Assembly (NCBI RefSeq): GCF_026626685.1
Contig: NZ_JAPNJX010000021.1
Span: 105,329 to 169,328 of the forward strand
Length of the DNA: 64,000 nucleotides
Direction: 5' to 3'
From: Nannocystis sp. SCPEA4
GTDB lineage: Bacteria; Myxococcota_A; Polyangia; Nannocystales; Nannocystaceae
The notes under the pieces were generated by a model that saw only the letters and a program-made list of their open reading frames with translations, searched no databases and was not told the DNA's origin. Of the stretch, positions 39,284 to 56,566 are shown piece by piece. Position numbers and translations under genes: made by a program. The first letter of the stretch is position 1, and every line of letters begins with the position of its first letter.

Positions 39284-40744
39284 TCACGCCGGCGTGAACA
39301 CGAACGGATACGTCACCGCCGTCGAGCCTGCCCCCTCGGCCCGCGGGAACTTCCACCGCCGCACCGCCTGGGCGACGCAGGCCGACAGCGCCTGATCGCG
39401 GACATCGCTGTCGATCGCCGCGGCACTGGTCACCTGGCCCCCGCCGCCGATCACGAACTGCACGCTCACCCTGCCCTTCGCCTCCGGATCGCGGGCCAGT
39501 GTCTGATTGTAGCAGTGGCGGACCTCGGCCAGGTGCGCGCGGACGATCCGGCGAATGATGTCGCGGTCGAGGGCGCCCTGGGCCTCGCCGCTGCCCGGTC
39601 GCACTGTCGGCACCCGTGTGCCACGGCCGCCGAACGCCACGCCCGACCGCGACTGCCACGAGTTCGCCTCGACCCCACACCCGCAGCCCTTGCCGATCAG
39701 GCCGACCACGTCGAGGCCGGCCCCCTCGCCCGACAGCGGTCCGCCGCGCCCGGTGCCGACCAGTCCGAGGCCGCCGAGGCCGATCTCGCCGACCTGCGAG
39801 CCGCCTGCTCCGCCCCACACGTCGGCGTCGCCGTCGGCCCCGGCGTACGCCTCGCCCGCCCCGACGAACCCGCTCGCCTGCATCAGCCCGAGCACCCCGG
39901 CGCTGCGGGCCGCCTGCGCCGGATCGTGCCCGCGGCCCAGCGCCGGCACCGTGCTCGCCGGACCACGCGCCAGCCCGCCGAGCCGCGGCTGACGCACCGC
40001 CCGACCCGCCGACACACCTGTCTCTCCGGACATCCCGCCTACATCCGTGTCGTCGCCCGGGCTCGCCGCCTGCTCGCGCGCCGGCAGGGTCGCGCGCACC
40101 ACCCGACCGACGTAACGCTCGTCGTCCGGCCCCAGATCGACCTGTCGTATCGACAATGCCTCTTGAGACATGTGCAAAAGTACAGCCTCGAAACCGATCA
40201 ACCCGAGCCCCGCGGTCGCGATCGAGCGCAGCGGCAGATCGAGGCCGCCGCGCGCGATCGTCGTCGTCTCCGGCTGGACCGCGCGGATCTCCAGCGTCAC
40301 GGGTCCATGCGTCAGCGTGCAGCCGCTCGTGGGCACCCGCCGACAGCCGGCGGTGGTGAACATCCACGGACCGGTCGCGCCGGCGACGAAGCGCGGCGTC
40401 GCGGCGCGCGGCAGGCCGGGCAGCCGCTGCGACGGGCGTTCGCGCAGGCGCGACAGTCCGACCACCAGCGGCACCAGACCGAGCAGCGCCAGCGCCCCGC
40501 CGAGGCCCCCGGTGCCGAGCCCGGGCGCGGGCGGTCGCACCTCGCCGCGCAGCTGCGCGGCCGCCACCGCGGCGGCGTAACCGGACCAGTCCTGACGCAC
40601 CTCGCTGGCGAACAGCCCGAGCCCCCCGGCAAACACCAGCGCGCCGAGGCCCAGCGCCAGCGCACCGCGGCGACGCGGCGCAGGCCGCAGGTGGACCACG
40701 TCCAGCGTCGTGCGGCCGTACGTGGTGACGACTTCGATCCACAT
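39284..40744 (-). CDS. AgmX/PglI C-terminal-domain protein (TonB-C-like; myxobacterial gliding-associated family)
   Basis: N-terminal TM helix, Gly-rich middle, C-terminus LDRDIIRRIVRAHLAEVRHCYN...GRVSVQFVIGGGGQV...CVAQAVRRWKFP matches the AgmX/PglI C-terminal domain. Confidence 0.6.
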   Translation of the reverse strand: MWIEVVTTYGRTTLDVVHLRPAPRRRGALALGLGALVFAGGLGLFASEVRQDWSGYAAAVAAAQLRGEVRPPAPGLGTGGLGGALALLGLVPLVVGLSRLRERPSQRLPGLPRAATPRFVAGATGPWMFTTAGCRRVPTSGCTLTHGPVTLEIRAVQPETTTIARGGLDLPLRSIATAGLGLIGFEAVLLHMSQEALSIRQVDLGPDDERYVGRVVRATLPAREQAASPGDDTDVGGMSGETGVSAGRAVRQPRLGGLARGPASTVPALGRGHDPAQAARSAGVLGLMQASGFVGAGEAYAGADGDADVWGGAGGSQVGEIGLGGLGLVGTGRGGPLSGEGAGLDVVGLIGKGCGCGVEANSWQSRSGVAFGGRGTRVPTVRPGSGEAQGALDRDIIRRIVRAHLAEVRHCYNQTLARDPEAKGRVSVQFVIGGGGQVTSAAAIDSDVRDQALSACVAQAVRRWKFPRAEGAGSTAVTYPFVFTPA

Positions 40745-43740: not shown

Positions 43741-44811
43741 TCACATCGGCCGCGGGCGGCAGACCAGCAGCGTGTGGCTGACCCCGAGGTCGTCGTACTC
43801 GCGCTCGACCTCGAGACCGGCCGCGTGCAGGCACGCGAGGAACGTCGTCGAGCGGTACATCTGGCTGGTGCCGTTGGCGACCGCGGTGAAGTAGAGCGAC
43901 GTCATCTGCAGGCAGAAGCTGGCGGCGGCGAAGCGCTGGCGGTCCCAGAACGCCTCGAGGATGTAGATCCTGCAATTGGGCCCGGTGGCCGCGACGCAGC
44001 GGCGCAGGATCGACACGATCTCGGCCTCGGAGAAGCAGTCGAGGAACTGGCTCATCCAGATCGCGTCGAATTCGGCCGGGATCGCCGTGCGCTCGTCGAG
44101 CAGGTCGGCCTCGAGGAAGCGGGCCCGCGCCAGCAGCCCCGCCTCGCGCAGGTTCTGCTCCGCGTTGCGCAGCTGGCCCGGCAGGTCCATCAGCGTCACC
44201 TCGACGTCCGGGTCGTGCTTCATGCAGGCGATCGCCCACTTGCCGGTGTTGCCGCCGATGTCGAGCAGGCGCCGCGGCTTGCCGGCGAACACCAGCGGCA
44301 GCGCCGCCCCGAATGCGCCGTCCGAATAATAGTGGTCGAAGCCGAACCACGACTTTCGCACCGACTCCGGCAATTGCGCGAGCCCCTCGTACACCGTGGC
44401 CCACTCGCCGAACACCTTGAGCCCCTCGGGCTTGCCCGAGGCCACCGCCGCGTCGAGGGCCGCGATCCCGTGGTAGTTCACGTCGCGCGTGAAGTCGAAG
44501 TTGGCGCGCGTCATCGCGTCGTGTTGCACGTACACGCCGGTCTTGGTGATGCGATAGCGACCCTCGACCTCGGCGACCAGCCCGATCCCGAGCCCCGCCT
44601 CGAGCACCACCCGCGTGCCGTAGATCGGCAGCCCGGCCGTGGCCGCCACCTCCTCGAGCGTCAGCCCGTCCTTGCTCTGCTCGATGGCGAGGAGGATCCC
44701 GCGGTCGCGCAGCACGCGGGCCGCCTGGAACACGAACGGAGCGAACGCGATCCACTGCGCGCGCTCCAGCGCTTCGAGCGCGCTGATGGGCTTGGGGGCT
44801 TGAGCGGTCAT
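43741..44811 (-). CDS. Class I SAM-dependent O-methyltransferase (natural-product OMT-like)
   Basis: Dimerisation-domain-like N-terminus, LLDIGGNTGKWA SAM motif I. 356 aa from Met MTAQAPKPI. Confidence 0.75.
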   Translation of the reverse strand: MTAQAPKPISALEALERAQWIAFAPFVFQAARVLRDRGILLAIEQSKDGLTLEEVAATAGLPIYGTRVVLEAGLGIGLVAEVEGRYRITKTGVYVQHDAMTRANFDFTRDVNYHGIAALDAAVASGKPEGLKVFGEWATVYEGLAQLPESVRKSWFGFDHYYSDGAFGAALPLVFAGKPRRLLDIGGNTGKWAIACMKHDPDVEVTLMDLPGQLRNAEQNLREAGLLARARFLEADLLDERTAIPAEFDAIWMSQFLDCFSEAEIVSILRRCVAATGPNCRIYILEAFWDRQRFAAASFCLQMTSLYFTAVANGTSQMYRSTTFLACLHAAGLEVEREYDDLGVSHTLLVCRPRPM

Positions 44812-45120
44812 GCCGGAGGCCCGACTTTCGCTCACCGTGGCCCCGCCGACGAGTGGCACAGCCCCTACTCGGCAGAGAGCGTTTTCGCGCATCGCCGGGA
44901 GCAACTACCGCGGCTGCGGCCCCCCAGCACGCGCCGGCGCGCCCGTCCCCGCCCACCACGGGCGGGCCGGCCGCCCCGCCTCGCCCTGCTGAGGACGGGC
45001 GATCTCCTCTCGTGCCGACCACGGTCGCCAAGTTCCTGTGTCTGCAGGCCGCCGCGCACGCTCTCGCGTGCTCCCGACATTCTCGGTCGACGCGGCCATG
45101 CTCGCGGCGCCCGCATTGAA

Positions 45121-45175
45121 CAATATGCCCATAAGGACATGTCGATAACGCCATGTCCTCATGGACTCTCGTGGC
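45121..45175. repeat. Intergenic 14-bp-period GACATGTC-family array
   Basis: CAATATGCCCATAAG / GACATGTCGATAAC / GCCATGTCCTCATG / GACTCTCG. Confidence 0.65.
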
Positions 45176-45217
45176 ATTCTCGCCGGCGGCTCGCGCGCGC
45201 GAGCCGCCGGCCATTCG

Positions 45218-46438
45218 TCACACCGGCGGCGCGCAGTCGCGGGCGATCTGCGCCACCGCCTCGGCCCGCGGCAGCACCTGCTGCTGTTCGCGGATCCGCA
45301 GCGCCAGCGCCTCGCCGGCGGCCTCGCGGGCGCCGATCACCGCGAACATCGGCACCCCGTTCGCGTGGGCCTCGGCGACCCGGCGGGCCAGCGTCTCGCG
45401 GCGGTCGTCGAGCTCGACGCGCACCCCGGCCGCCCGCAATTCGGCGACTGCCGCCGCGGCCGCCTCGTTCTGCCCCGGGGCCACCGGCGCCACCACCACC
45501 TGCACGGGAGCCAGCCAGGCCGGCAGCGCCCCTGCGTGGTGCTCGAGCACGATCGCCAGGAAGCGCTCGACGCTGCCGTAGATCGCGCGGTGCAGCATCG
45601 CCGGGCGCCGGCGCTGGCCGGCCTCGTCGATGTAATGCAGGTCGAACCGCGAGGGCAGGTTGAAGTCGAGCTGGATCGTCCCGCACTGCCACGAGCGGCC
45701 GAGGCGGTCGCGCAGCGAGAACTCGAGCTTGGGCCCGTAGAACGCGCCCTCGCCCGGCTGCACCGCGCAATCGAGGCCGGCGTCGCGGGCCGCCGCGGCG
45801 AGCAGCGCCTCGGCGCGATCCCACGTCGCGTCGTCGCCGACTCGCTCGGGCGGGCGCGTCGACAGGCCCACCGCGAAATCGACGAAGCCGAACGCCGCGT
45901 AGAACTGGCGGGCGCCGCGGCAAAATCGCACGATCTCGGGCCCGATCTGGTCCTCGGCGCAGAACACGTGGCCGTCGTCCTGCGTGAACTGTCGCAGGCG
46001 GAACAGCCCGTGCAGCGTCCCGCTCGGCTCGTCGCGGTGGCACAGGCCGAACTCGCACACCCGCAGCGGCAGGTCGCGGTACGACAGCGCGCTGCGCTGG
46101 GCGATCTGGATGTGACCGGGGCACGAGACCGGCTTCAGCGCCGCGCCGCAGCCCTCGTCGGCGACTGCGAACATTCCGTGGCGGAAGTGCTCCCAGTGGC
46201 CGCTCTTCTCCCAGATCGGCTGTCTCAACAATTGCGGCGTGCGCACCTCGTGGTAGCCGTCGGCGGCGGCGCGGCGGCGGGCCGCGTCCTCGAGCGCGCG
46301 GACGAGGAGCAGGCCTTTCGGGTGCCAGAACACCATCGCCGGGGCCTCTTCCTGCAGGTGGAACAGGCCGAGGCGCGGCCCGAGGGCGCGGTGGTCGTGG
46401 GCGTCGAGGACGGAATGGGGGCTGATGTCGTGACTCAT
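45218..46438 (-). CDS. Threonyl-tRNA synthetase paralog consisting only of the catalytic core plus anticodon-binding domain
   Basis: 406 aa. Begins at the equivalent of the ThrRS catalytic-domain start (DHRALGPRLGLFHLQEEAPAMVFWHPKG). Zinc ligands conserved (PVSCPGH, EFGLCHRDE, MLHRAIYGS). Class II motifs present. The N-terminal TGS and editing domains are absent. Confidence 0.8.
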   Translation of the reverse strand: MSHDISPHSVLDAHDHRALGPRLGLFHLQEEAPAMVFWHPKGLLLVRALEDAARRRAAADGYHEVRTPQLLRQPIWEKSGHWEHFRHGMFAVADEGCGAALKPVSCPGHIQIAQRSALSYRDLPLRVCEFGLCHRDEPSGTLHGLFRLRQFTQDDGHVFCAEDQIGPEIVRFCRGARQFYAAFGFVDFAVGLSTRPPERVGDDATWDRAEALLAAAARDAGLDCAVQPGEGAFYGPKLEFSLRDRLGRSWQCGTIQLDFNLPSRFDLHYIDEAGQRRRPAMLHRAIYGSVERFLAIVLEHHAGALPAWLAPVQVVVAPVAPGQNEAAAAAVAELRAAGVRVELDDRRETLARRVAEAHANGVPMFAVIGAREAAGEALALRIREQQQVLPRAEAVAQIARDCAPPV

Positions 46439-46905
46439 GGCGGCGGACTCCTGGGGGCAAAGGGCCGACCGGACGGAGCGACGCCACCGAGACGCGCGAA
46501 ACCCCGCCGGCTCGGGCGGGGTTTCGCAGGGCGTGGACGACTCTCTCAGCGCACGCGCACGCGACCGACCCCACCCGGATGGGTGGTAGTGGTGGTCGCG
46601 GTGGTGGCGCGCCGGAGCATCGAATTCGGGGATACACGCCACCCTTCGATCGGTCAAGGCGAATGCCCGTGCGGAAGCTCGTATACGCCGGTGTGGGCAT
46701 TCGCCGAGCGCCAATCCAATCACCCCGGTCAGGCGAGGTCTGCCGTGATTGTGACGTCGGCCGCTCGCTCCGCCGCGGCCGCGGCGGTCATCACTCACAT
46801 GTCTCTTCAGACAGGCGAAGCCTTCACCGCCCGCGCGGGCGATCGCGCGCCCGTACTCGGGGACGCCCGCTTCCGGCCGTGGCCGCGCTGTCGTATCACT
46901 GCGCC

Positions 46906-48243
46906 ATGCCCACATCAGGCTCCGGGCCGGCGAATCGGCGCGCGCTCGTGATCGGCGGCGGGATCGCCGGCCTCCTCGCCGCTCGCGTGCTCACGCGTCA
47001 CTACGAGCGCGTCACCGTCCTCGACCGCGACCTCTTGCCGGGCGGACCGGAGCCGCGCGCCGGCGCCCCGCAGAGCCACCACGTCCACGTCCTGCTGACG
47101 CGCGGCTGGCAGATCCTGAGCGAGCAGTTCCCCGGCCTCGGCGACGCGCTCGCGGCCGCGGGGGCGCACGAGTACGACTGGCTGGCCGACGTCGAGTGGC
47201 ACACCCCGTTCGGCGTCATGCCGCGCGGGCCCTCGACGCTGCGCTCGCGCGCCTGCACCCGCGGCTTGCTCGAGTGGAACGTGCGCGCGCGCCTCGTCGC
47301 CGACGATCGCGTGCGCGTGCACGCGGGTTACGAGGTGACCGGTCTGCAGAACGCGGGCGAGCGGATCGTCGGCGTGCAGGTCCACCGCCGCGCCGGCGCG
47401 CCCGAGCTCGCGGTCGACGACCTGCGCGCCGACCTGGTCGTCGACGCCAGCGGCCGCGCCTCCAAGGCCCCGACCTGGCTGGCCGCGCTCGGCTACCCCG
47501 AGCCCGCCGAGACCGTCATCGACGCCCAGCTCGGCTACGCCACCCGCCTCTACGAGCTGCGCGCGCGGCCCGACTGGAAGGTCCTCTACATCATGGGCAA
47601 GCCGGGCCAGAACCCGCGCGGCGGGGTCGTGTACGCGGTCGAGGGCGGGCGTCACATCGTCACGCTGGTCGGCTACGGCGGCGCCTTCCCGCCGACCGAC
47701 GAGGCCGGCTTCCTCGAGTTCGCGGGCGGCCTGCGGACCCCCGCGCTGCGCGACGTGCTGGCCGGCGCCACCCCGTGCAGCAGCATCCACGGCTATCGCC
47801 GGACCGAGAACCGCCTGCGCCACTACGAGCGCCTGCGCCGCTGGCCGCACGGCTTCGTCGTGCTCGGCGACGCCGCCTGCGCCCTCAACCCCGTCTACGG
47901 CCAGGGCATGAGCGTCGCCGCCGTCGCCTCGACTCACCTCGACGCCGAGCTGCGCGCGCGCCCCGGCCAACCGCCCGGCCTACGCTTTCAGAAGCGCCTC
48001 GCCGCCGGCAACCAGGCCGCCTTCATGACCGCCGTCGGCGACGACCTGCGCTGGCCCGGGACCACCGGCAAACCGTCACCTGGCCTCAAGGTCATGCACC
48101 GACTGGTCGACCGGATCTTCAGCGCCGCCACCCACTCGCCCGACGTCCAGCTGCGCATGATGCAGGTGCTGCACCTGCTGCGCCCGAGCAGCGCCCTGTT
48201 CCACCCCAGCGTGCTGCGCCGCGCCCTGCTCGGCTCGCGTTGA
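46906..48243 (+). CDS. FAD-dependent oxidoreductase/monooxygenase
   Basis: RALVIGGGIAGLLAARVL dinucleotide-binding motif, internal GD/DG-type motifs. 445 aa from Met MPTSGSG. Confidence 0.75.
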   Translation: MPTSGSGPANRRALVIGGGIAGLLAARVLTRHYERVTVLDRDLLPGGPEPRAGAPQSHHVHVLLTRGWQILSEQFPGLGDALAAAGAHEYDWLADVEWHTPFGVMPRGPSTLRSRACTRGLLEWNVRARLVADDRVRVHAGYEVTGLQNAGERIVGVQVHRRAGAPELAVDDLRADLVVDASGRASKAPTWLAALGYPEPAETVIDAQLGYATRLYELRARPDWKVLYIMGKPGQNPRGGVVYAVEGGRHIVTLVGYGGAFPPTDEAGFLEFAGGLRTPALRDVLAGATPCSSIHGYRRTENRLRHYERLRRWPHGFVVLGDAACALNPVYGQGMSVAAVASTHLDAELRARPGQPPGLRFQKRLAAGNQAAFMTAVGDDLRWPGTTGKPSPGLKVMHRLVDRIFSAATHSPDVQLRMMQVLHLLRPSSALFHPSVLRRALLGSR

Positions 48244-48278
48244 GGATAGAAGGCGCGGAGCCCGGAGGACGGACGGCG

Positions 48279-48767
48279 TCACCGCTGCGCCGGTCCGGCC
48301 GCGAGCATCGGCGACAGCTCGAGCAGCAGCACCGGCCACAGCTGCAGGACGCCGGCGATCAGCGCGGCCGCGGCGTAGGTCTGCCACGCGCGCACGCCGG
48401 CCCGCCAGGCGTCGCGGAACGTGAGCGCCGCGAGCGGCAGGAAGAACACCATCGCGCTGATGCAGCCGGGGTTGGGGTGCCCGCCGGTCAGCGACGGCAG
48501 CAGGTGGAACAGCAGCGCGTTTATCACCATCAGCGCCGGGAACACCAGGGCGCAGGCCGGCATCCGCCAGCCGATCATCGCCGTCGTCACGCCGATGACG
48601 ATCACCACCGCGTTGGTGACATAAAAGGTCGACCAGCCGGGGAACATCATGCCGACCGACTGCGCCCAATCGAGCCAACCGAAGGCCAGCTCTTCCATGA
48701 TGTGCAGGCCGTACGCAGGGACGCACAGCCAGAGCATGCTCGAGAAGGGGTCGCGTTCCGTCGTCAT
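48279..48767 (-). CDS. HXXEE-domain membrane protein
   Basis: LHIMEELAFGW motif in the first TM, about 5 TM helices. 162 aa. Confidence 0.5.
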   Translation of the reverse strand: MTTERDPFSSMLWLCVPAYGLHIMEELAFGWLDWAQSVGMMFPGWSTFYVTNAVVIVIGVTTAMIGWRMPACALVFPALMVINALLFHLLPSLTGGHPNPGCISAMVFFLPLAALTFRDAWRAGVRAWQTYAAAALIAGVLQLWPVLLLELSPMLAAGPAQR

Positions 48768-48999
48768 GCCCCGAACATGCCGGACCGCACGGCGCCCCGC
48801 TTGACCGGCGGCGCCAGCCGTCGAACCGAACGCGCCAGTCAGTGCCGCGACCGGGTCCTTTCGAGCAGGCCTCGCCAGTTCTCCGCCACCCTGGCCGCGT
48901 TGCTCGTCGCTCACATATTGGCCCGACATGCTCCTCCTCGCGCTTGCCAGCCTGTCGCAGCCCGGCGCGAGGACGACTCGAAAGGACCCGGTCGCGGCG

Positions 49000-49998
49000 C
49001 TAGCCGCGGTACTCCGACGGGCTCGCGCCCGTCCAGCGGCGGAAGGCCCGGCTGAACGCGCTCAGATCGGAGAAGCCGAGCATGAACGCGATGTCGGTCA
49101 CCGTCGCGTCGGGCCGCCCGAGCTGGGCCAGCGCCGCCTCTCGCCGGACCTCGTCGACCACGTCCCGGAGGCTCGTGCCCGCCTGTCGCAGCCGCCGCTG
49201 CATCGTCCGCTCCGAGGTCCCCAGCGCGCGCGCCACCGACCTCGCCAGCGTGTCGCCCTCGCCGAGCAGCGCCTGCACCTGCGCCCGCAGCTCGGCGACG
49301 AACGCCGCCTCGCCCCCCCGGCCGCGCAACTCGTGCTCGAGCTGCGGCAGCAGCGTGCGGGCCAGCCCCGCGTCGACGCCCTGCACCGGCAGCCCCAGCA
49401 CCTCGGGCGGGAACACCAGCGCATCCTCGTCCGCGCCGAAGCGCAGCGGCGCCGCGAACGACCGCTCGAGCGGGGCCGCGTCGCTCGACGCCGGATCGCG
49501 CAGCCGCACCTCCGTCAGCAGCTCGCGTCGACCGGTCGCGCGGCGCAGCTTGATCGTCCACACCGCCAGCAAGAACTGCGACAGGTGCCGCGAGCGCGGC
49601 AGCTCGCCGCGGAACCGGTGGCCGAGCACCGCCAGCTCGCCGCGCAGCTCGAAGCGCGCGTCGTTGGCCTCGTGGTACAGCGCCTGATAGCGCAGAAACT
49701 GGCGCATCATCGTCGCTACGTCGGCGGTATGGGCCAGCGCCAGGTCGACGATGTCGAACGGCGCCGCGCCGACCAGCTCCGCCGCGAACACTCCGAAGGC
49801 CGGCTCCCCGCTCGCGCTCGCCATCGCCTCCCACACGGCGATGGCCGTCGAGTGCGGCACCCGGGCCGTCGCGTCGCCGATCGTCGACGGCGAGACCCGC
49901 ACACGCTGCGCGAGCTCGGCGAGCGGCCGCCCCGTCCGGGCCGCGGCCGCGAGCAGCGGGACCCGCACCGACTGGATGCACACCCTCGGCTCGGCCAT
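49000..49998 (-). CDS. AraC-family transcriptional regulator
   Basis: C-terminal dual HTH (TVTDIAFMLGFSDLSAFSRAFRRWTGASPSEYR). 332 aa from MAEPRVCIQ. Confidence 0.8.
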   Translation of the reverse strand: MAEPRVCIQSVRVPLLAAAARTGRPLAELAQRVRVSPSTIGDATARVPHSTAIAVWEAMASASGEPAFGVFAAELVGAAPFDIVDLALAHTADVATMMRQFLRYQALYHEANDARFELRGELAVLGHRFRGELPRSRHLSQFLLAVWTIKLRRATGRRELLTEVRLRDPASSDAAPLERSFAAPLRFGADEDALVFPPEVLGLPVQGVDAGLARTLLPQLEHELRGRGGEAAFVAELRAQVQALLGEGDTLARSVARALGTSERTMQRRLRQAGTSLRDVVDEVRREAALAQLGRPDATVTDIAFMLGFSDLSAFSRAFRRWTGASPSEYRG

Positions 49999-50012
49999 TT
50001 CCGGCGAGGATA

Positions 50013-53482: not shown

Positions 53483-54532
53483 TCACCAGCGGATCGTCAC
53501 CAGTCCGTCGCCCGCGCGCACCCCGGGCAGCCCGCTGCTGTCGGGCTCGTCGCCGAGGTACGACGAGCCGCCGCCCCCGCCCGCCGCATAGGCCGAGCCG
53601 CCGCCGAACCAGCCGCCGCCCCCGCCTGCCACGTGGTACAGGCCGACCCCGCCGCCGCTGCCGAACAGGCCCGGCTCGCCCGGCTCGGAGCCCACGGTTC
53701 CGCCGTCGCTCTGCGTGCCGCCGCCTGCCGCCTGCCACTCGGGCAACAGCGCCACGCCGGCGCCGCCGATGAACACACCGCCCGGACCGCCCTCGCCGTG
53801 ATCGGGGCAGCCGCACTGTCCGCCGCCGCCGCCCGCCGCCACCACGATCCGATCCTCGAGCTCCGTCCCGCCGCGGCGCACGTCGCTGGCTCCGCCGCCG
53901 CCGCCCGCGAACTCGCCCCCGACGCCGCCGCCGTTGTAACCAGCCGCGCCCTCGAGCCCGCCGCGTCCGCCGACCACGATCTGCAGCGCCTCACCCGGCT
54001 CGACCTCGAGCTCGGTGCGCACGTAAGCACCGCGGCCGCCGTCGTCCTGCTCCGGTCCATCGCAGCAGCGCGAGCCGCCGCCCTGGGCGCCCCACGCCTC
54101 GATGGTGATCCGCGACACGCAGTCGGGCACCACGAACGTCTGCAGCGCGCCGGTGAACGCGAACTCGCGGGCGCGGCCGTCGGGCGTCACGCGCGTGCGC
54201 TCGACACACTGACCGTCGCAGCGGATCTGGCCGCGCTCGCACGGCGCCTCGCAGTAACCCGCCGCGCACGTGCCGGCGCAGACGCGGCCGCAGCCGCCGC
54301 AGTGGCGCGCGTCGAGCGTGATGTCGACGCACTCCAAACCGCACAGGTCGAGCGCGGCCGCCTCGCACGCGCGCACCAACGCCTTGTCTGCATCGGCGGC
54401 GTCGTCCGCCTCGGCGACCGCGAGCGCGCCCGGCACCGGTCGCGGGGGCTGCGTGTCCGAGACCTCGTCGCAGCCGCCGGCGGTGATCATCAACACCACC
54501 GACAACGTGCACCACCGGTCCTTGCGTCCCAT
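53483..54532 (-). CDS. Glycine-rich lipoprotein (Gly_rich-domain family), paralog 1
   Basis: Lipobox LMITAGGC. Cys-rich module, FAFTGALQTFVVPDCVSRITIEAWGAQGGGS block, then a long poly-Gly tail ending TIRW. Confidence 0.65.
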   Translation of the reverse strand: MGRKDRWCTLSVVLMITAGGCDEVSDTQPPRPVPGALAVAEADDAADADKALVRACEAAALDLCGLECVDITLDARHCGGCGRVCAGTCAAGYCEAPCERGQIRCDGQCVERTRVTPDGRAREFAFTGALQTFVVPDCVSRITIEAWGAQGGGSRCCDGPEQDDGGRGAYVRTELEVEPGEALQIVVGGRGGLEGAAGYNGGGVGGEFAGGGGGASDVRRGGTELEDRIVVAAGGGGGQCGCPDHGEGGPGGVFIGGAGVALLPEWQAAGGGTQSDGGTVGSEPGEPGLFGSGGGVGLYHVAGGGGGWFGGGSAYAAGGGGGSSYLGDEPDSSGLPGVRAGDGLVTIRW

Positions 54533-54839
54533 CTGCCTGGTTCCCCCTGCGACCTGTAGGGATGATGCGCAGCAGGCAGGCACGCAAACCCCGTTGTGTC
54601 CCGCATCACCAGCGCCGCGCCGCTCTCCATGAAGATGTCCCTTCACACATGTCCGAAAGACATCCTCGCAAGCCGACACACCTCGCCGCCGCACGACGTT
54701 CACCACCGCTTCGGCCCGCCGCCACGCGCCGCACGTCGTCGCGGTCCACCACGCAGCTGCACCTCGCCGGTTCACGGCACCGACCTCGAGTCCAACCTTC
54801 GCCTCGCGCCTCGCAGCCATGCGCTCCCATCTCGGCGCA

Positions 54840-55180
54840 CTCCCCGGTGGACCTGGATGACGCCGCGCTCACTGGCAGATCTGCACCACCCCGACGACGT
54901 CCCCATCTCCATCCGCGCCTCGCTGCCGTCCGCTCGGATCTCGGCACACGCACCTGTGCACCTGGATCACGCCGCTCTCACTGGCAGATCTGCACCACCT
55001 CGACGACGTCACGTCGCGCTCACTGGCAGATCTGCACCGCCCCGACGACGTCGCCTGTCTCCATCCGCGTCTCGCGGCCGCGCCTCGCTCGGCGCTCATC
55101 CGCGGCTCCGCACCCACACCATCCGCGCGCCTCGCTCTCGAGCTCCGCCTCGCCATCGTCCGCTCGCGGTTCGGCGCGCT
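54840..55180. repeat. Complex direct repeats in the spacer between the glycine-rich paralogs
   Basis: GCGCTCACTGGCAGATCTGCACC(A/G)CC(C/T)CGACGACGTC x3 (about 54865, 54971, 55015), plus repeated GGA(C)CTGGAT(G/C)ACGCCGC and CCATCTCCATCCGCG blocks. Confidence 0.7.
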
Positions 55181-56028
55181 CACCAGCTGATCACCACCAC
55201 ACCATGGCCGTCGCGCGCCCCGATCTCGAGCTCCGCCTCGCTGCCGGCCGGGCCCACGTACGACGAACCGCCGCCTCCGCCCGCGCCGAAGGCCCCGCCA
55301 CCGCCGTACCAGCCGCCGCCGCCTCCGGCCACGTGATAGCCGGCCGCTCCGCCGCCGAGCCCGAACACGCCGGCCTGACCTGGCGCCGCTCCGCCCGTGC
55401 CACCCGCGTGCGGCTGTCCACCGCCGCCTGCGCGCCAGTTCACGTCGCCGACCACCCCGTCCTCCCCGACCAGCCCGCCGCCGTGTCCGCCCGCTCCGTG
55501 ATCCGGATAGCCGCACACGCCGCCGCCGCCGCCGCCGACCACCAGCGCGCGATCGACCAGGCTCGCGCCGTTCAGGCGCACGTCCGACGCTCCGCCGCCG
55601 CCACCGCCCCACCTCCCGCCGCTGCCGCCGCCGTTCCAGCCGGGCGCGCCGTCGAGGCCTCCGCGGCCGCCGACGTGCACCAGCACCACGTCGCCGGGGC
55701 TGACCGAAAGGTCAGCTCGCAATCGGCCTCCGTGTCCGCCGTCCTCCTGCACGTCGGGCAGGCCGTGCTCTTCGTCGATGCCGCAGCGGCTCGGCCCGCC
55801 CTGCGCGCCCCACAGCTCGACGGTCAGCGTCGTCACGCACTCCGGCACCACGAACGCCTGCGGCGTGCCCGTGAAGCTGAACCACCGCGCGCCTGGCTCC
55901 ACACACTCCGAAGTTCGCTCCGGGGCCATCCCGTCGATGCCCTCGTACTCGGCCGCGTGGCAGCCGAGCAGCACCGCCAGCGCCGCCGCGGCGCGATCGT
56001 GTCGGATGTGAGAGCCCGCCCGCTGCAT
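55180..56028 (-). CDS. Glycine-rich lipoprotein (Gly_rich-domain family), paralog 2
   Basis: Lipobox AVLLGCHA. WFSFTGTPQAFVVPECVTTLTVELWGAQGGPS block and poly-Gly tail ending VVISW. Clearly paralogous to 53483..54532. Confidence 0.65.
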   Translation of the reverse strand: MQRAGSHIRHDRAAAALAVLLGCHAAEYEGIDGMAPERTSECVEPGARWFSFTGTPQAFVVPECVTTLTVELWGAQGGPSRCGIDEEHGLPDVQEDGGHGGRLRADLSVSPGDVVLVHVGGRGGLDGAPGWNGGGSGGRWGGGGGGASDVRLNGASLVDRALVVGGGGGGVCGYPDHGAGGHGGGLVGEDGVVGDVNWRAGGGGQPHAGGTGGAAPGQAGVFGLGGGAAGYHVAGGGGGWYGGGGAFGAGGGGGSSYVGPAGSEAELEIGARDGHGVVVISW

Positions 56029-56199
56029 CGTACCCCCTCCTCCAGGGATGCGCGGCGTCGTCCGCGGTGCAACCTCCCCCGTGCTGCCCGTCACGTCGGT
56101 CGGTCGCTGGCGACAAACCCTCCAGCGCCGAAGCGCGCCCGCACGCGGGGCGGCGCGACGCCCGGCTTTCACCCTGCCCCTTGGAACATTCCCTCGAGC

Positions 56200-56566
56200 A
56201 CATGCCCATGAAGACATGCCTATTACAACATGTCCATTGAGACATTCTACTTGACCTCGGCCCCGGCCACCTGCGCCCCCGCCTCCCCCTGTCTCCCGCG
56301 GCGCGGCGGCCGAACGCCACGCCACGACCTGTCCCTTGCGACATTCCACCTCGCCCAGCTCCGCCCCCTGCCAGGCCCGCGCCCCACCGACATCTCGCCA
56401 CGCCACGACGACATGTCCCTTTCGACATGTTTCCTCGCGCATGACTCACCGGCCCGATGCCGGCCCGCGCCTACCCCCAACAGGTCGCCGCGCCCTTCAA
56501 ACGCCCCGACGACCTGTCCTTTTCAACATGCCCCATCGAGCATGACTCACCGGCCCGACGCCGGCC
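56200..56566. repeat. GACATG 14-bp-period array plus a 56-nt direct repeat x2 upstream of glycine-rich paralog 2
   Basis: ACATGCCCATGAA / GACATGCCTATTAC / AACATGTCCATTGA / GACATTCTACTTGA. Also GAC(A/C)TGTCC(C)TTT(C/T)(G/A)ACATG...GCATGACTCACCGGCCCGA(T/C)GCCGGCC at about 56411 and 56511. Confidence 0.7.

What the first reader, a model, noticed from the sequence alone, without database searches (positions are those of the whole stretch)
43741..49998. Catalytic-core-only ThrRS paralog clustered with an O-methyltransferase, an FAD monooxygenase and an AraC regulator
45218..46438 encodes a ThrRS that starts exactly at the catalytic-domain boundary. All three zinc ligands and the class II motifs are present, but the TGS and editing domains are absent. 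A housekeeping thrS would normally be full length, so this is an extra, specialised copy. Duplicated or divergent aminoacyl-tRNA synthetases next to tailoring enzymes (here an OMT and a flavin monooxygenase, with an AraC regulator and a small membrane protein nearby) are classic self-resistance markers for aaRS-targeting natural products; for ThrRS the known examples are borrelidin and obafluorin. They could also act as amino-acid-activating enzymes in small-molecule biosynthesis. No PKS or NRPS is present in the window.
Basis: inference. Interest (0 to 1): 0.6.

Follow-up and report, generated by a model that had tools for sequence, protein, structure and literature searches.

The report
Threonine-starvation-switched, editing-less ThrRS gene cassette
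The short threonyl-tRNA synthetase gene is real, but it is not part of an antibiotic gene cluster: it is a self-contained cassette conserved across myxobacteria, and a threonine-codon leader peptide with a terminator/antiterminator RNA switch upstream should turn it on when charged threonine tRNA runs low.

Summary
Observation confirmed. Window 45218-46438 (-) encodes a 406-aa ThrRS with a catalytic core and anticodon-binding domain but no TGS or editing domain. All zinc, threonine and ATP ligands are intact.

The natural-product-cluster reading is not supported:
- The protein belongs to a ~400-aa family found across Myxococcota, and its neighbours differ in every lineage.
- OMT and FAD-enzyme adjacency exists only in Nannocystis.
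- The AraC and HXXEE genes are missing even from N. exedens.
- No PKS or NRPS lies in the 64 kb.

New finding: all 27 family loci with enough upstream sequence carry a leader ORF with 5-8 Thr codons (here MLRRATTATTTTTHPGGVGRVRVR*, 46620-46546). A G-rich segment follows, then a GC-rich terminator hairpin. The G-rich segment can pair with the terminator's 5' arm as an antiterminator. This is the architecture of ribosome-mediated attenuation sensing Thr-tRNAThr.

- The family groups with proteobacterial-type ThrRS, not with the canonical full-length myxobacterial thrS, which sits in the thrS-infC-rpmI-rplT-pheST operon.
- The M. xanthus gene MXAN_2352, taken as the ortholog by product name and length, rises about 7-fold late in development.

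Best reading: an auxiliary, editing-less ThrRS induced when tRNAThr charging fails.

Not shown: a full-length thrS in this same genome.

The parts
46629..46657 (-). Promoter-like boxes for the leader transcript: TTGACC (46657-46652), a 17-nt spacer, then TATCCC (46634-46629). The leader ATG lies 8 nt after the -10 box, so the 5' UTR would be very short or absent.
   Evidence: Read directly from the sequence. A TTGAC box sits 48-62 nt before the Thr run in 20 of 27 family loci. The consensus scanner did not call it. Function is inferred.
46546..46620 (-). Leader peptide ORF, MLRRATTATTTTTHPGGVGRVRVR*. It has 24 codons plus the stop, and 7 of them are Thr.
   Evidence: Translation. An equivalent ORF with 5-8 Thr in 8 residues lies 61-154 nt upstream of the ThrRS-core gene in 27 of 27 family loci with enough upstream sequence. 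It is absent from 3 of 3 canonical myxobacterial thrS loci. Among 57 proteobacterial full-length thrS loci none reaches 6 of 8. Only 4 such Thr-rich stretches occur in all six frames of the window.
46582..46605 (-). Regulatory codon run, ACC ACC GCG ACC ACC ACT ACC ACC (region 1). This is where a ribosome would stall when Thr-tRNAThr is scarce.
   Evidence: The columns are nearly invariant in the 24-leader alignment A2.
46568..46576 (-). Region 2, GGGTGGGGT. It has the same sequence type as the terminator's 3' arm and pairs with region 3 (46522-46514) to form the antiterminator.
   Evidence: 79.6% of cells are paired across 24 leaders, against at most 55.6% when the partner is slid. The covariation score is 0.175 against 0.111 in shuffles (4 of 500 reach it). 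It is the only helix RNAalifold predicts on A2. Duplex energy in this window is -21.4 kcal/mol.
46496..46527 (-). Terminator hairpin (regions 3 and 4): GCGAAACCCCGCC, loop CGAGCC, GGCGGGGTTTCGC. It is a 13-bp perfect stem. The U tract is weak here (TTTC) and runs to 4-7 T in other lineages.
   Evidence: -26.9 kcal/mol. Across 24 leaders 70% of cells are paired against at most 51% when slid, and the covariation score is 0.163 against 0.083 in shuffles (0 of 500 reach it). L105 carries two double compensatory changes. Clear T runs follow the stem in L012, L024, L102, L103 and L105.
46439..46487 (-). Hairpin that sequesters the Shine-Dalgarno: GGTGGCG..CTCC (46478-46475) pairs with AGGAG (46452-46448)..CGCCGCC just before the ATG.
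   Evidence: MFE folds of the leaders. The CUCCG/CGGAG pair becomes CUCCA/UGGAG in L091, by inspection. No formal covariation test was run.
45218..46438 (-). ThrRS catalytic core plus anticodon-binding domain, 406 aa. This is a natural equivalent of the engineered delta-N ThrRS.
   Evidence: Of 70 columns that are at least 97% conserved in full-length ThrRS, 66 are kept. M332V and V376L (E. coli numbering) are fixed in all family members examined.
45182..45211 (-). Perfect 30-bp palindrome starting 7 nt after the stop codon. It is a probable transcript end and separates the gene from the OMT downstream.
   Evidence: There is no T run, so the function is inferred.

Best explanation
The gene is an auxiliary threonyl-tRNA synthetase without its editing module. 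It is carried as a self-contained cassette of promoter, Thr-codon leader peptide, antiterminator/terminator switch and ThrRS core. The cassette is conserved across Myxococcota and is also found in one alphaproteobacterial genome and one gammaproteobacterial MAG.

Proposed mechanism:
1. Transcription starts just upstream of a 24-codon leader ORF.
2. When Thr-tRNAThr is plentiful, the ribosome runs through the seven Thr codons. The G-rich region 2 is then occupied or paired, the CCCCGCC/GGCGGGG hairpin forms, and transcription stops before the synthetase gene.
3. When Thr-tRNAThr is scarce, the ribosome stalls in the Thr run. Scarcity could come from threonine starvation, starvation-induced development, or inhibition or shortage of the housekeeping ThrRS.
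4. With the ribosome stalled, region 2 pairs with the 5' arm of the terminator, the terminator cannot form, and the ThrRS core is made.
5. The enzyme then charges tRNAThr. It has no editing domain, so Ser-tRNAThr would have to be tolerated, cleared in trans by the full-length enzyme, or avoided through the remodelled active site (M332V, V376L).

Shown here: gene anatomy, intact catalytic residues, family conservation, the leader ORF, both alternative helices with covariation, specificity of the leader to this family, and phylogenetic position.

Shown in the literature: late-developmental induction of the M. xanthus gene. Its orthology rests on product name and length.

Inferred: attenuation itself, aminoacylation activity, how serine errors are handled, and the presence of a full-length thrS in this same genome.
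For: Anatomy and catalytic residues.

Family:
- About 400-aa homologues at 59-93% identity occur in Sorangium, Myxococcus, Stigmatella, Corallococcus, Archangium, Melittangium, Pyxidicoccus and Nannocystis. All have only PF00587 plus PF03129.
- No N-terminal domain lies within 10 kb in 18 family loci, whereas it is contiguous in all proteobacterial loci whose upstream sequence was available.

Leader and RNA switch:
- A Thr-run leader ORF is present in 27 of 27 loci.
- Terminator helix statistics. Antiterminator helix statistics: with independent RNAalifold support.
- The covariance model scores at least 41 bits only directly upstream of family genes, apart from two divergent held-out leaders. 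Held-out leaders score 96.7 bits (L008), 24.5 (L098) and 24.7 (L103). Nothing is found upstream of canonical thrS.
- A weak full-length resemblance to Rfam Thr_leader covers exactly this interval (13.9 bits).

Phylogeny: the family clade has 98/100 support. The split that places it with proteobacterial-type enzymes has 96/100. It never joins canonical Myxococcota ThrRS.

Canonical copy: a full-length thrS sits in the infC-rpmI-rplT-pheST operon in a Polyangiales MAG, and a second locus shows thrS followed by infC. A full-length ThrRS is also present in Sandaracinus.

Expression: M. xanthus MXAN_2352 is 1203 bp (400 aa), lies in developmental group 8, goes from RPKM 30 at 0 h to 213 at 48 h, and is 'up2' in induced sporulation (PMC6791715, Fig. 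3 source data 1 and 5). [quoted passage not shown]
Against: - No experiment bears on attenuation here.
- The U tract after the window's terminator is weak (TTTC).
- Equilibrium folding with a masked Thr run abolishes the terminator in only some leaders, for example L004, L008 and L014. It does not do so in the window's own leader (0.76 to 0.75).
- The antiterminator duplex beats composition-matched shuffles at 0.05 or better in only 10 of 27 sequences, because the region is so G-rich.
- The region 1:2 helix is poorly supported.
- E. coli pheST shows that attenuation alone does not mark a gene as auxiliary (own knowledge).
- Inducing an enzyme without editing exactly when the Ser/Thr ratio is worst looks counter-intuitive.
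- R583, which is 95% conserved in the anticodon-binding domain of full-length enzymes, is replaced by A, V or L. tRNA recognition may therefore differ.
Confidence: 0.72

Rival explanations
1. It is an inducible, inhibitor-insensitive ThrRS. On this reading the cassette is a resistance device against ThrRS-targeting natural products made by other soil organisms, such as borrelidin- or obafluorin-type compounds. Inhibition of the housekeeping enzyme lowers Thr-tRNAThr, the attenuator opens, and a variant enzyme with an altered active site takes over. This is a special case of the best explanation, not an alternative to the attenuator.
For: - The attenuator logic fits induction by any block of tRNAThr charging.
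- Two active-site-region positions that are 97-100% invariant in full-length ThrRS are fixed to other residues in every family member: M332V, two residues before the Zn-binding Cys, and V376L in the motif-2 loop. Y313F is also near-fixed.
- There is a precedent. S. coelicolor has an auxiliary indolmycin-resistant TrpRS that is induced (cited in PMC9437257). Its control by a Trp-codon leader attenuator is from my own knowledge (Vecchione and Sello 2010).
Against: - L489, whose mutation gives borrelidin resistance in E. coli (own knowledge), is retained as L or M. All other listed contact residues are canonical.
- No inhibitor is known to select for this.
- The effect of M332V and V376L is unknown.
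Confidence: 0.2
2. One reading: the gene is a self-resistance gene, or an amino-acid-activating enzyme, of a small-molecule pathway encoded with the adjacent O-methyltransferase, FAD monooxygenase, AraC regulator and membrane protein.
For: The genes are adjacent in the window and in two Nannocystis-type contigs, L004 and L008. The OMT scores 485 bits against the FlxJ-family methyltransferase model, below its cut-off of 560.
Against: - Neighbours are unrelated in five other lineages.
- AraC and HXXEE are absent from L004 and L008.
- The gene has its own promoter, leader and terminator, and a 30-bp palindrome separates it from the OMT.
- The FAD gene is divergent.
- No PKS, NRPS or other core enzyme was found among the 20 window proteins scanned.
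- The leader senses tRNAThr charging, not a pathway product.
Confidence: 0.03
3. It is the only ThrRS of these organisms, that is, the housekeeping enzyme, with attenuation tuning its level as for E. coli pheST.
For: - I could not show a full-length thrS in Nannocystis, Myxococcus or Sorangium.
- The two searches seeded with canonical Polyangia ThrRS listed no named member of those genera in their best 120 hits.
- TIGR00418 is passed above its cut-off.
Against: - Full-length thrS in the conserved infC operon exists in Myxococcota, including Polyangiales and Sandaracinus.
- The truncated family is a xenolog of proteobacterial type, not a descendant of that gene.
- The M. xanthus copy is low in growth (RPKM 30) and peaks in sporulation, whereas most translation genes are reported down by 6 h.
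- Its genomic position is not conserved.
- From memory and unverified: reference myxobacterial proteomes carry a full-length ThrRS.
Confidence: 0.1

Closest known systems
Engineered E. coli delta-N ThrRS (residues 242-642; PDB 1EVK, 1EVL, 1FYF, 1KOG)
   Same: Same domain content and the same N-terminal boundary: window residue 14 aligns with E. coli residue 242, with E about 1e-119. From my own knowledge (Dock-Bregeon et al. 2000), that construct aminoacylates tRNAThr normally but releases Ser-tRNAThr.
   Different: This one is a natural gene conserved across a phylum. It carries fixed M332V and V376L changes and has its own regulatory leader.
Bacillus subtilis thrZ, the second ThrRS gene (silent unless Thr is limiting or ThrS is depleted)
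   Same: The logic is the same: an auxiliary ThrRS gene switched on by a transcription antitermination device that reads tRNAThr charging (own knowledge, Putzer et al. 1990/1992).
   Different: thrZ uses a T-box, which senses uncharged tRNA directly, and encodes a full-length enzyme with editing. Here the sensor is a translated Thr-codon leader and the enzyme lacks the N-terminal half. No T-box was found.
Streptomyces coelicolor trpRS1 (auxiliary, indolmycin-resistant TrpRS)
   Same: An auxiliary aaRS that is induced rather than constitutive (PMC9437257). From my own knowledge, it is controlled by ribosome-mediated attenuation with tandem cognate codons in a leader peptide.
   Different: It is a different synthetase. 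Resistance is demonstrated there and untested here. Loss of the editing domain has no counterpart.
Classical leader-peptide attenuators: E. coli thr operon leader (Rfam RF00506) and the pheST leader pheM
   Same: A short ORF rich in the cognate codon, followed by mutually exclusive antiterminator and terminator helices. pheST shows that the device can control an aaRS gene (own knowledge).
   Different: It is not a sequence member of RF00506 (13.9 bits against a gathering score of 55). It controls a ThrRS paralog rather than biosynthetic genes. It occurs in Myxococcota.
Anabaena ThrRS T2 (PMC4787780)
   Same: A duplicated ThrRS with impaired editing that is expressed only under stress. In that system, editing is supplied in trans by subunits of the housekeeping enzyme.
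   Different: T2 keeps a degenerate N2 domain and is Zur-regulated by zinc. Here the N-terminal half is absent altogether and the signal is tRNAThr charging.
Naturally editing-less ThrRSs: yeast mitochondrial MST1 (PDB 3UGQ) and crenarchaeal ThrRS-cat (PDB 3A31)
   Same: A catalytic core plus anticodon-binding domain without a cis editing domain. Both appear among the structure hits.
   Different: They are much more distant (244 and 178 bits against about 400 for bacterial ThrRS). They are the sole or main enzyme of their compartment, and in crenarchaea they are paired with a separate editing protein.
BorO and ObaO, the ThrRS immunity genes of the borrelidin and obafluorin clusters
   Same: An extra ThrRS copy in the genome (PMC9854587).
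   Different: Those genes lie inside their biosynthetic clusters. This gene has no conserved cluster context.

Membership tests
Threonyl-tRNA synthetase (class II aaRS; TIGR00418 / PF00587 + PF03129) | Class II catalytic core with motifs 2 and 3 | tested here: met
   PF00587 scores 151.9 bits and TIGR00418 scores 448 bits against a cut-off of 383.65. R363, E365 and R520 are present in the window protein and in at least 115 of 116 aligned family members.
Threonyl-tRNA synthetase (class II aaRS; TIGR00418 / PF00587 + PF03129) | Active-site zinc ligands Cys334, His385 and His511, plus Thr-binding Asp383, Tyr462, Lys465 and Gln484 | tested here: met
   All are present in the window protein and in 116 of 116 family members aligned.
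Threonyl-tRNA synthetase (class II aaRS; TIGR00418 / PF00587 + PF03129) | C-terminal anticodon-binding domain with conserved Glu600 and Arg609 | tested here: met
   PF03129 scores 54.1 bits. E600 is kept in 98% and R609 in 100% of members, but R583 is replaced by A, V or L.
Threonyl-tRNA synthetase (class II aaRS; TIGR00418 / PF00587 + PF03129) | N-terminal TGS (N1) and editing (N2, tRNA_SAD) domains of bacterial ThrRS | tested here: not met
   No Pfam hit. The protein starts at E. coli residue 229 equivalent. No N-terminal domain is encoded anywhere in the window or within 10 kb in 18 family loci.
Threonyl-tRNA synthetase (class II aaRS; TIGR00418 / PF00587 + PF03129) | Charges tRNAThr with threonine | not testable with these tools
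   This needs an aminoacylation assay.
Leader-peptide (ribosome-mediated) transcription attenuator | Short translated ORF with a run of the cognate regulatory codon just upstream of the regulated gene | tested here: met
   A 24-codon ORF has 7 Thr codons. The equivalent is present in 27 of 27 family loci. Controls: 0 of 3 canonical myxobacterial thrS loci, and none of 57 proteobacterial loci at the same stringency.
Leader-peptide (ribosome-mediated) transcription attenuator | Intrinsic terminator between the leader and the gene | tested here: inconclusive
   A conserved GC-rich hairpin with covariation is present. The T tract is clear in several lineages (L012, L024, L102, L103, L105) but weak in the window (TTTC). 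The consensus terminator scan found none.
Leader-peptide (ribosome-mediated) transcription attenuator | Mutually exclusive antiterminator that uses the terminator's 5' arm | tested here: met
   Region 2 pairs with region 3 in 79.6% of cells, against at most 55.6% when slid. RNAalifold predicts it. Duplex energies fall mostly between -15 and -28 kcal/mol, comparable to the terminators.
Leader-peptide (ribosome-mediated) transcription attenuator | Read-through increases when the cognate charged tRNA is limiting | not testable with these tools
   Only indirect evidence exists: the M. xanthus gene taken as the ortholog rises late in starvation-induced development.
Rfam Thr_leader (RF00506) | Score at or above the family's gathering threshold | tested here: not met
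   13.9 bits against 55, E = 4.9, although the match covers the whole model on 46492-46616 (-). Nothing reaches the gathering score anywhere in the window.
Cluster-encoded self-resistance aaRS (BorO / ObaO type) | Located within, and conserved with, a biosynthetic gene cluster for an aaRS inhibitor | tested here: not met
   No core biosynthetic genes were found among the window proteins scanned. Neighbours are not conserved beyond Nannocystis.
Cluster-encoded self-resistance aaRS (BorO / ObaO type) | Insensitive to the inhibitor | not testable with these tools
   L489 is retained. M332V and V376L are family-specific but their effect is unknown.
Auxiliary (second-copy) aaRS | A housekeeping copy is present in the same genome | not tested
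   A canonical full-length thrS was shown in other Myxococcota.

The most novel reading that the evidence does not exclude
The family may be a ThrRS that has dispensed with editing by design. One possibility is that the fixed active-site changes (M332V, V376L, Y313F) let the core reject serine on its own, so a bacterial ThrRS would reach fidelity without a proofreading domain. The other is that the cell deliberately makes an error-prone ThrRS when threonine runs out, so that Thr codons are read as Ser and translation can finish during starvation and sporulation. In both cases a Thr-codon attenuator times the switch, and cassette and leader have moved together between phyla.
Probability: 0.2. 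Interest if true: 0.8.

Novelty: new variant of a known kind. Interest (0 to 1): 0.62.

Why it matters
ThrRS is the textbook case of an aaRS that needs editing, because its zinc site cannot exclude serine. A natural ThrRS without an editing domain, conserved across a bacterial phylum, is therefore unexpected. It is more so because the gene appears wired to come on exactly when Thr-tRNAThr is scarce and the risk of charging serine is highest.

It gives a ready-made, genetically tractable system (M. xanthus MXAN_2352) for three questions:
- Is editing supplied in trans?
- Is mistranslation tolerated or used during development?
- Can the active site be tuned to discriminate serine?

It also adds a leader-peptide attenuator class in Myxococcota that no Rfam family captures.

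For genome miners it is a caution. In myxobacteria a 'duplicated, truncated thrS' is a core-genome feature with its own regulation, not a beacon for a ThrRS-inhibitor gene cluster.

Tried and rejected
- Split ThrRS with the N-terminal domain encoded nearby. tblastn with six N-terminal domains found nothing in the window or in 18 family loci.
- Biosynthetic cluster. Pfam on 20 window proteins found kinases, peptidases, hydrolases, a vault-protein-like gene and similar, with no PKS or NRPS.
- Known RNA elements (T-box, riboswitch, Thr_leader). Nothing reached the gathering score. Only sub-threshold hits appeared in the leader.
- E. coli-type translational operator that mimics the tRNAThr anticodon arm. 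By inspection the hairpin loops carry no CGU, GGU or UGU anticodon-like triplet in a 7-nt loop. This was not pursued.
- tRNA genes nearby: none.
- Equilibrium simulation of the attenuator, masking a stalled ribosome. The result was mixed. The terminator collapses in some leaders and not in others, and the automatic hairpin picking was unreliable, so I give it little weight.
- Region 1:2 'anti-antiterminator' helix. It is weak (65% paired, no covariation).
- Showing a full-length thrS in a genome that also has the truncated gene. I tried literature supplements: the Rubio 2015 ThrRS sheet was cut in storage, and the eLife M. xanthus whole-genome tables were cut at 2.4 Mb. I also tried cluster look-ups, two canonical-seeded protein searches and contig look-ups. 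These showed canonical thrS in Polyangiales and Sandaracinus but never both genes in one named genome.
- Zinc-sparing paralog, as for Anabaena T2. All three Zn ligands are retained, and the regulatory signal is Thr codons rather than a Zur box. A Zur site was not searched for.
- Literature. Ten full-text searches found no description of this family or its leader.

Full report
**What is at the coordinates**

The window is about 73% G+C. Its best match is Nannocystis exedens DSM 71, which is syntenic at 81-94% nucleotide identity and has an ortholog 90% identical at the protein level.

The ORF at 45218-46438 (-) starts with ATG behind an AGGAG Shine-Dalgarno and encodes 406 aa.
- Pfam finds only the class II core (tRNA-synt_2b, 151.9 bits) and the HGTP anticodon-binding domain (54.1 bits).
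- NCBIfam's thrS model TIGR00418 is passed (448 bits, cut-off 383.65), but only over profile positions 170-560.
- Against solved structures the protein aligns end to end with bacterial ThrRS. Its residue 14 matches E. coli residue 242, the first residue of the crystallised delta-N constructs.
- In an alignment with E. coli ThrRS, 116 family members, 60 canonical myxobacterial enzymes and 26 diverse full-length enzymes, the Zn ligands (C334, H385, H511), motif-2 and motif-3 arginines and the threonine- and ATP-binding residues are all conserved. Its numbering was checked against the Zn ligands and the PDB alignment.

**It is a family, not a one-off, and the neighbourhood is not conserved**

A search of 5.8 billion proteins returned roughly 400-aa proteins with the same two domains at 59-93% identity. 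Sources include Sorangium, Myxococcus, Stigmatella, Corallococcus, Archangium, Melittangium and Pyxidicoccus, plus many metagenomes. A scan of species-representative genomes added Nannocystis, Byssovorax, Citreicoccus and Kofleriaceae. It also added one alphaproteobacterium (Desertibaculum) and a Steroidobacteraceae MAG.

The gene's neighbours differ in each lineage:

| Source | Neighbours |
|---|---|
| M. xanthus | OPT transporter, CBS, MsrB, PurL |
| Sorangium | P450, aminotransferase |
| Three metagenomic lineages | unrelated sets |

Only two Nannocystis-type contigs share the OMT and FAD genes. Both lack the 1.8-kb segment 48231-50012 that carries the HXXEE and AraC genes. Twenty proteins across the 64 kb show no PKS, NRPS or other core biosynthetic enzyme. 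The cluster reading therefore fails its main test.

**No N-terminal domain nearby**

tblastn with six ThrRS N-terminal (TGS plus editing) domains gave no hit in the window or in any of 18 family loci with up to 10 kb on each side. The same queries found a contiguous N-terminal domain in every proteobacterial locus whose upstream sequence was available.

**The unexpected part: a threonine-codon leader**

While folding the 5' regions I noticed runs of ACC, ACG and ACT codons upstream of the gene in distant lineages.
- In the window a 24-codon ORF (46620-46546, -) reads MLRRATTATTTTTHPGGVGRVRVR*.
- An equivalent ORF with 5-8 Thr in a span of 8 residues ends 61-154 nt before the ThrRS start in all 18 loci then in hand. 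The same was true of all 9 further metagenomic loci with enough upstream sequence, giving 27 of 27.
- Controls: none of 3 canonical myxobacterial thrS loci has one. Among 57 proteobacterial full-length thrS loci, 5 have an ORF with 4-5 Thr in 8 and none has more.
- In all six frames of the 64-kb window only four places reach 6 Thr in 8. One is this leader, and another is the Thr/Ser-rich tail of a real protein.

**Alternative RNA structures**

Downstream of the Thr run every leader has three elements in order:
1. A G-rich segment, GG(C/U)GGG(G), called region 2. In the window it is at 46576-46568.
2. A hairpin spanning the leader stop codon.
3. A GC-rich hairpin, CCCCGCC-loop-GGCGGGG. In the window it is at 46527-46496, a 13-bp perfect stem of -26.9 kcal/mol.

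The third hairpin is followed by 4-7 T in several lineages, but only by TTTC here.

Region 2 has the same sequence as the 3' arm of that hairpin. It can therefore pair with the 5' arm instead, which is the arrangement of an antiterminator.

On a 24-sequence alignment (A2):

| Helix | Cells paired | Partner slid | Covariation score (shuffled) | Shuffles reaching it |
|---|---|---|---|---|
| Terminator | 70% | at most 51% | 0.163 (0.083) | 0/500 |
| Antiterminator | 79.6% | at most 55.6% | 0.175 (0.111) | 4/500 |

- The antiterminator is also the only helix RNAalifold predicts on its own.
- Where the terminator sequence departs from the consensus, region 2 departs with it. Examples are L105 (CGUCGG/CCGACG), the Myxococcaceae extension (GGAACC/GGUUCC) and L100.
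- A covariance model built on the leaders scores at least 41 bits only directly upstream of family genes, apart from two divergent held-out leaders. Sequences left out of the model score 96.7 bits (L008), 24.5 (L098) and 24.7 (L103). Nothing is found upstream of canonical thrS.
- Rfam has no family that captures it. The E. coli-type Thr_leader model gives a sub-threshold match of 13.9 bits that spans the full model over exactly this interval.
- A TTGAC box with a 17-nt spacer and a -10-like hexamer precedes the leader in 20 of 27 loci. In the window these are TTGACC at 46657-46652 and TATCCC at 46634-46629.
- A perfect 30-bp palindrome follows the ThrRS stop codon.

The gene thus has the complete anatomy of an independent, attenuator-controlled transcription unit.

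Weaknesses:
- The window's U tract is poor.
- An equilibrium folding simulation was mixed and did not open the window's own terminator.
- The region 1:2 helix is weak.
- Per-sequence significance of the antiterminator is limited by the G-rich composition.

**Where the gene comes from**

Full-length ThrRS (650-663 aa, with tRNA_SAD) exists in Myxococcota, including Polyangiales MAGs and Sandaracinus amylolyticus. In one Polyangiales MAG it sits in the classical thrS-infC-rpmI-rplT-pheS-pheT operon, and a second locus shows thrS followed by infC.

Over 372 catalytic-core columns, the window protein's identity is:
- 42-44% to these canonical myxobacterial enzymes
- 45-55% to alpha/beta/gamma-proteobacterial-type ThrRS
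- 50-90% to its own family

In neighbour-joining bootstraps:
- the family, with the two proteobacterial members, is a clade in 98 of 100
- the canonical myxobacterial enzymes are a clade in 100 of 100
- the split placing the family with proteobacterial-type enzymes appears in 96 of 100
- the family never joins the canonical myxobacterial clade

So it is a xenolog, not a recent internal duplicate. The leader travels with it: L017 and L024 have it too.

Two other short ThrRS representatives, P0122 and P0126, fall outside the clade. Truncation has therefore happened more than once.

**Family-specific changes**

Of 70 core columns that are at least 97% conserved in full-length enzymes, 66 are kept. 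Two universally conserved positions are fixed to other residues in every member: M332V and V376L in E. coli numbering. Y313F is near-fixed. R583 in the anticodon-binding domain becomes A, V or L. What these changes do is unknown.

**Expression evidence from the literature**

In the M. xanthus developmental transcriptome (PMC6791715), MXAN_2352/MXAN_RS11360 is annotated 'threonine--tRNA ligase' at 2732618-2733820. That is 1203 bp or 400 aa, the length of the family member P0095. I take the two to be the same gene from the product name and the length. I did not check the sequences against each other.

The gene is in developmental group 8. Its RPKM values are 30, 51, 50, 51, 213, 149 and 194 at 0, 6, 12, 24, 48, 72 and 96 h. 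It is scored 'up2' in chemically induced sporulation. [quoted passage not shown] This pattern fits a gene that responds to amino-acid shortage and not to growth rate.

**Interpretation**

The most economical reading is an auxiliary ThrRS that is made when Thr-tRNAThr runs short.
- It has the logic of B. subtilis thrZ, implemented with a leader-peptide attenuator as in S. coelicolor trpRS1 or E. coli pheST. Those three comparisons rest on my own knowledge.
- It uses an enzyme equivalent to the engineered delta-N ThrRS.
- How serine mischarging is handled is open. The Anabaena T1/T2 system (PMC4787780) shows that editing can be supplied in trans by the housekeeping enzyme.
- An inhibitor-insensitive variant remains possible but untested.

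**What remains unproven**
- Attenuation itself.
- Aminoacylation activity.
- The presence of a full-length thrS in the same genome as the truncated gene.

I put about 85% on co-existence. The reasons are the phylogeny, the expression pattern, the non-conserved genomic position, and the absence of any report that myxobacteria lack ThrRS editing.

Noticed in passing
window 48231-50012: The HXXEE membrane-protein gene and the AraC regulator form a 1.8-kb segment. It is present in this strain but absent from the otherwise syntenic N. exedens DSM 71 (L008) and metagenomic contig L004, so it is an indel between close relatives. The TonB-like gene at 39284-40744 likewise has no blastn match in L008.
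   Followed up: partly
window 46439-46487 (-), and the equivalent in L001, L002, L004, L005, L007, L008, L015 and L091: A conserved hairpin pairs a CUCC(G) element with the Shine-Dalgarno GGAG and the bases just before the ThrRS start codon. The pair changes to CUCCA/UGGAG in L091. This may be a second, translational layer of control. I saw it by eye and in MFE folds only.
   Followed up: partly
leader stop codon region, window about 46530-46565 (-); L001, L002, L010, L013 and L014: Another hairpin brackets the leader's stop codon and appears to covary: CUCGUGUG/CACACGAG in Sorangium, CCGUGCG/CGCACGG in Myxococcus, GCGUG/CACGC here. The loop motif UGAGCUGACGA is conserved in Sorangium and Myxococcus. 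Its role is unknown. It could be a pause site or part of the switch.
   Followed up: no
ThrRS-core protein, E. coli positions 332, 376, 313 and 583: M332V and V376L are fixed in all family members examined, although M and V are 100% and 97% conserved in full-length ThrRS. Y313F is near-fixed. R583, in the anticodon-binding domain, is replaced by A, V or L.
   Followed up: partly
L061 (uncultured betaproteobacterium), upstream of a full-length thrS: A short ORF, MPMMTTTTMISISVKP..., lies upstream of a canonical full-length thrS. Some Betaproteobacteria may also use a Thr-codon leader on their housekeeping thrS.
   Followed up: no
L045 11242-11372 (-), Phenylobacterium MAG: The leader covariance model gives a 28.6-bit hit (E about 2e-4) just downstream of a full-length thrS on the opposite strand. 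This is unexplained and may be a chance GC-rich hairpin next to a GGT repeat.
   Followed up: no
proteins P0122, P0126, P0137 and P0210 (a Myxococcaceae MAG): Other ThrRS proteins of 404-417 aa lack the N-terminal half and share 45-53% identity with the window protein. P0122 and P0126 fall outside the family clade in the tree. Loss of the editing half of ThrRS seems to have happened several times.
   Followed up: partly
window 30698-33304 (-) and 29180-30499 (-): An 869-aa protein has major-vault-protein shoulder and repeat domains plus an SPFH/Band 7 domain. The adjacent ORF carries a CxxxCxxC motif and looks like a radical SAM enzyme, but it was not scanned against any domain library.
   Followed up: no
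window 53483-54820 (-) and 55180-56442 (-): Two paralogous glycine-rich secreted-looking proteins end in GGGGG-rich repeats. The L004 counterpart carries Pfam ALK_LTK_GRD.
   Followed up: no
window 43741-44904 (-): The O-methyltransferase scores 485 bits against NCBIfam 'FlxJ family methyltransferase', below the cut-off of 560. The AraC regulator and the FAD enzyme give sub-threshold hits to QhpR (206 against 250) and QhpG (32 against 240). None of these was pursued once the neighbourhood proved not to be conserved.
   Followed up: no
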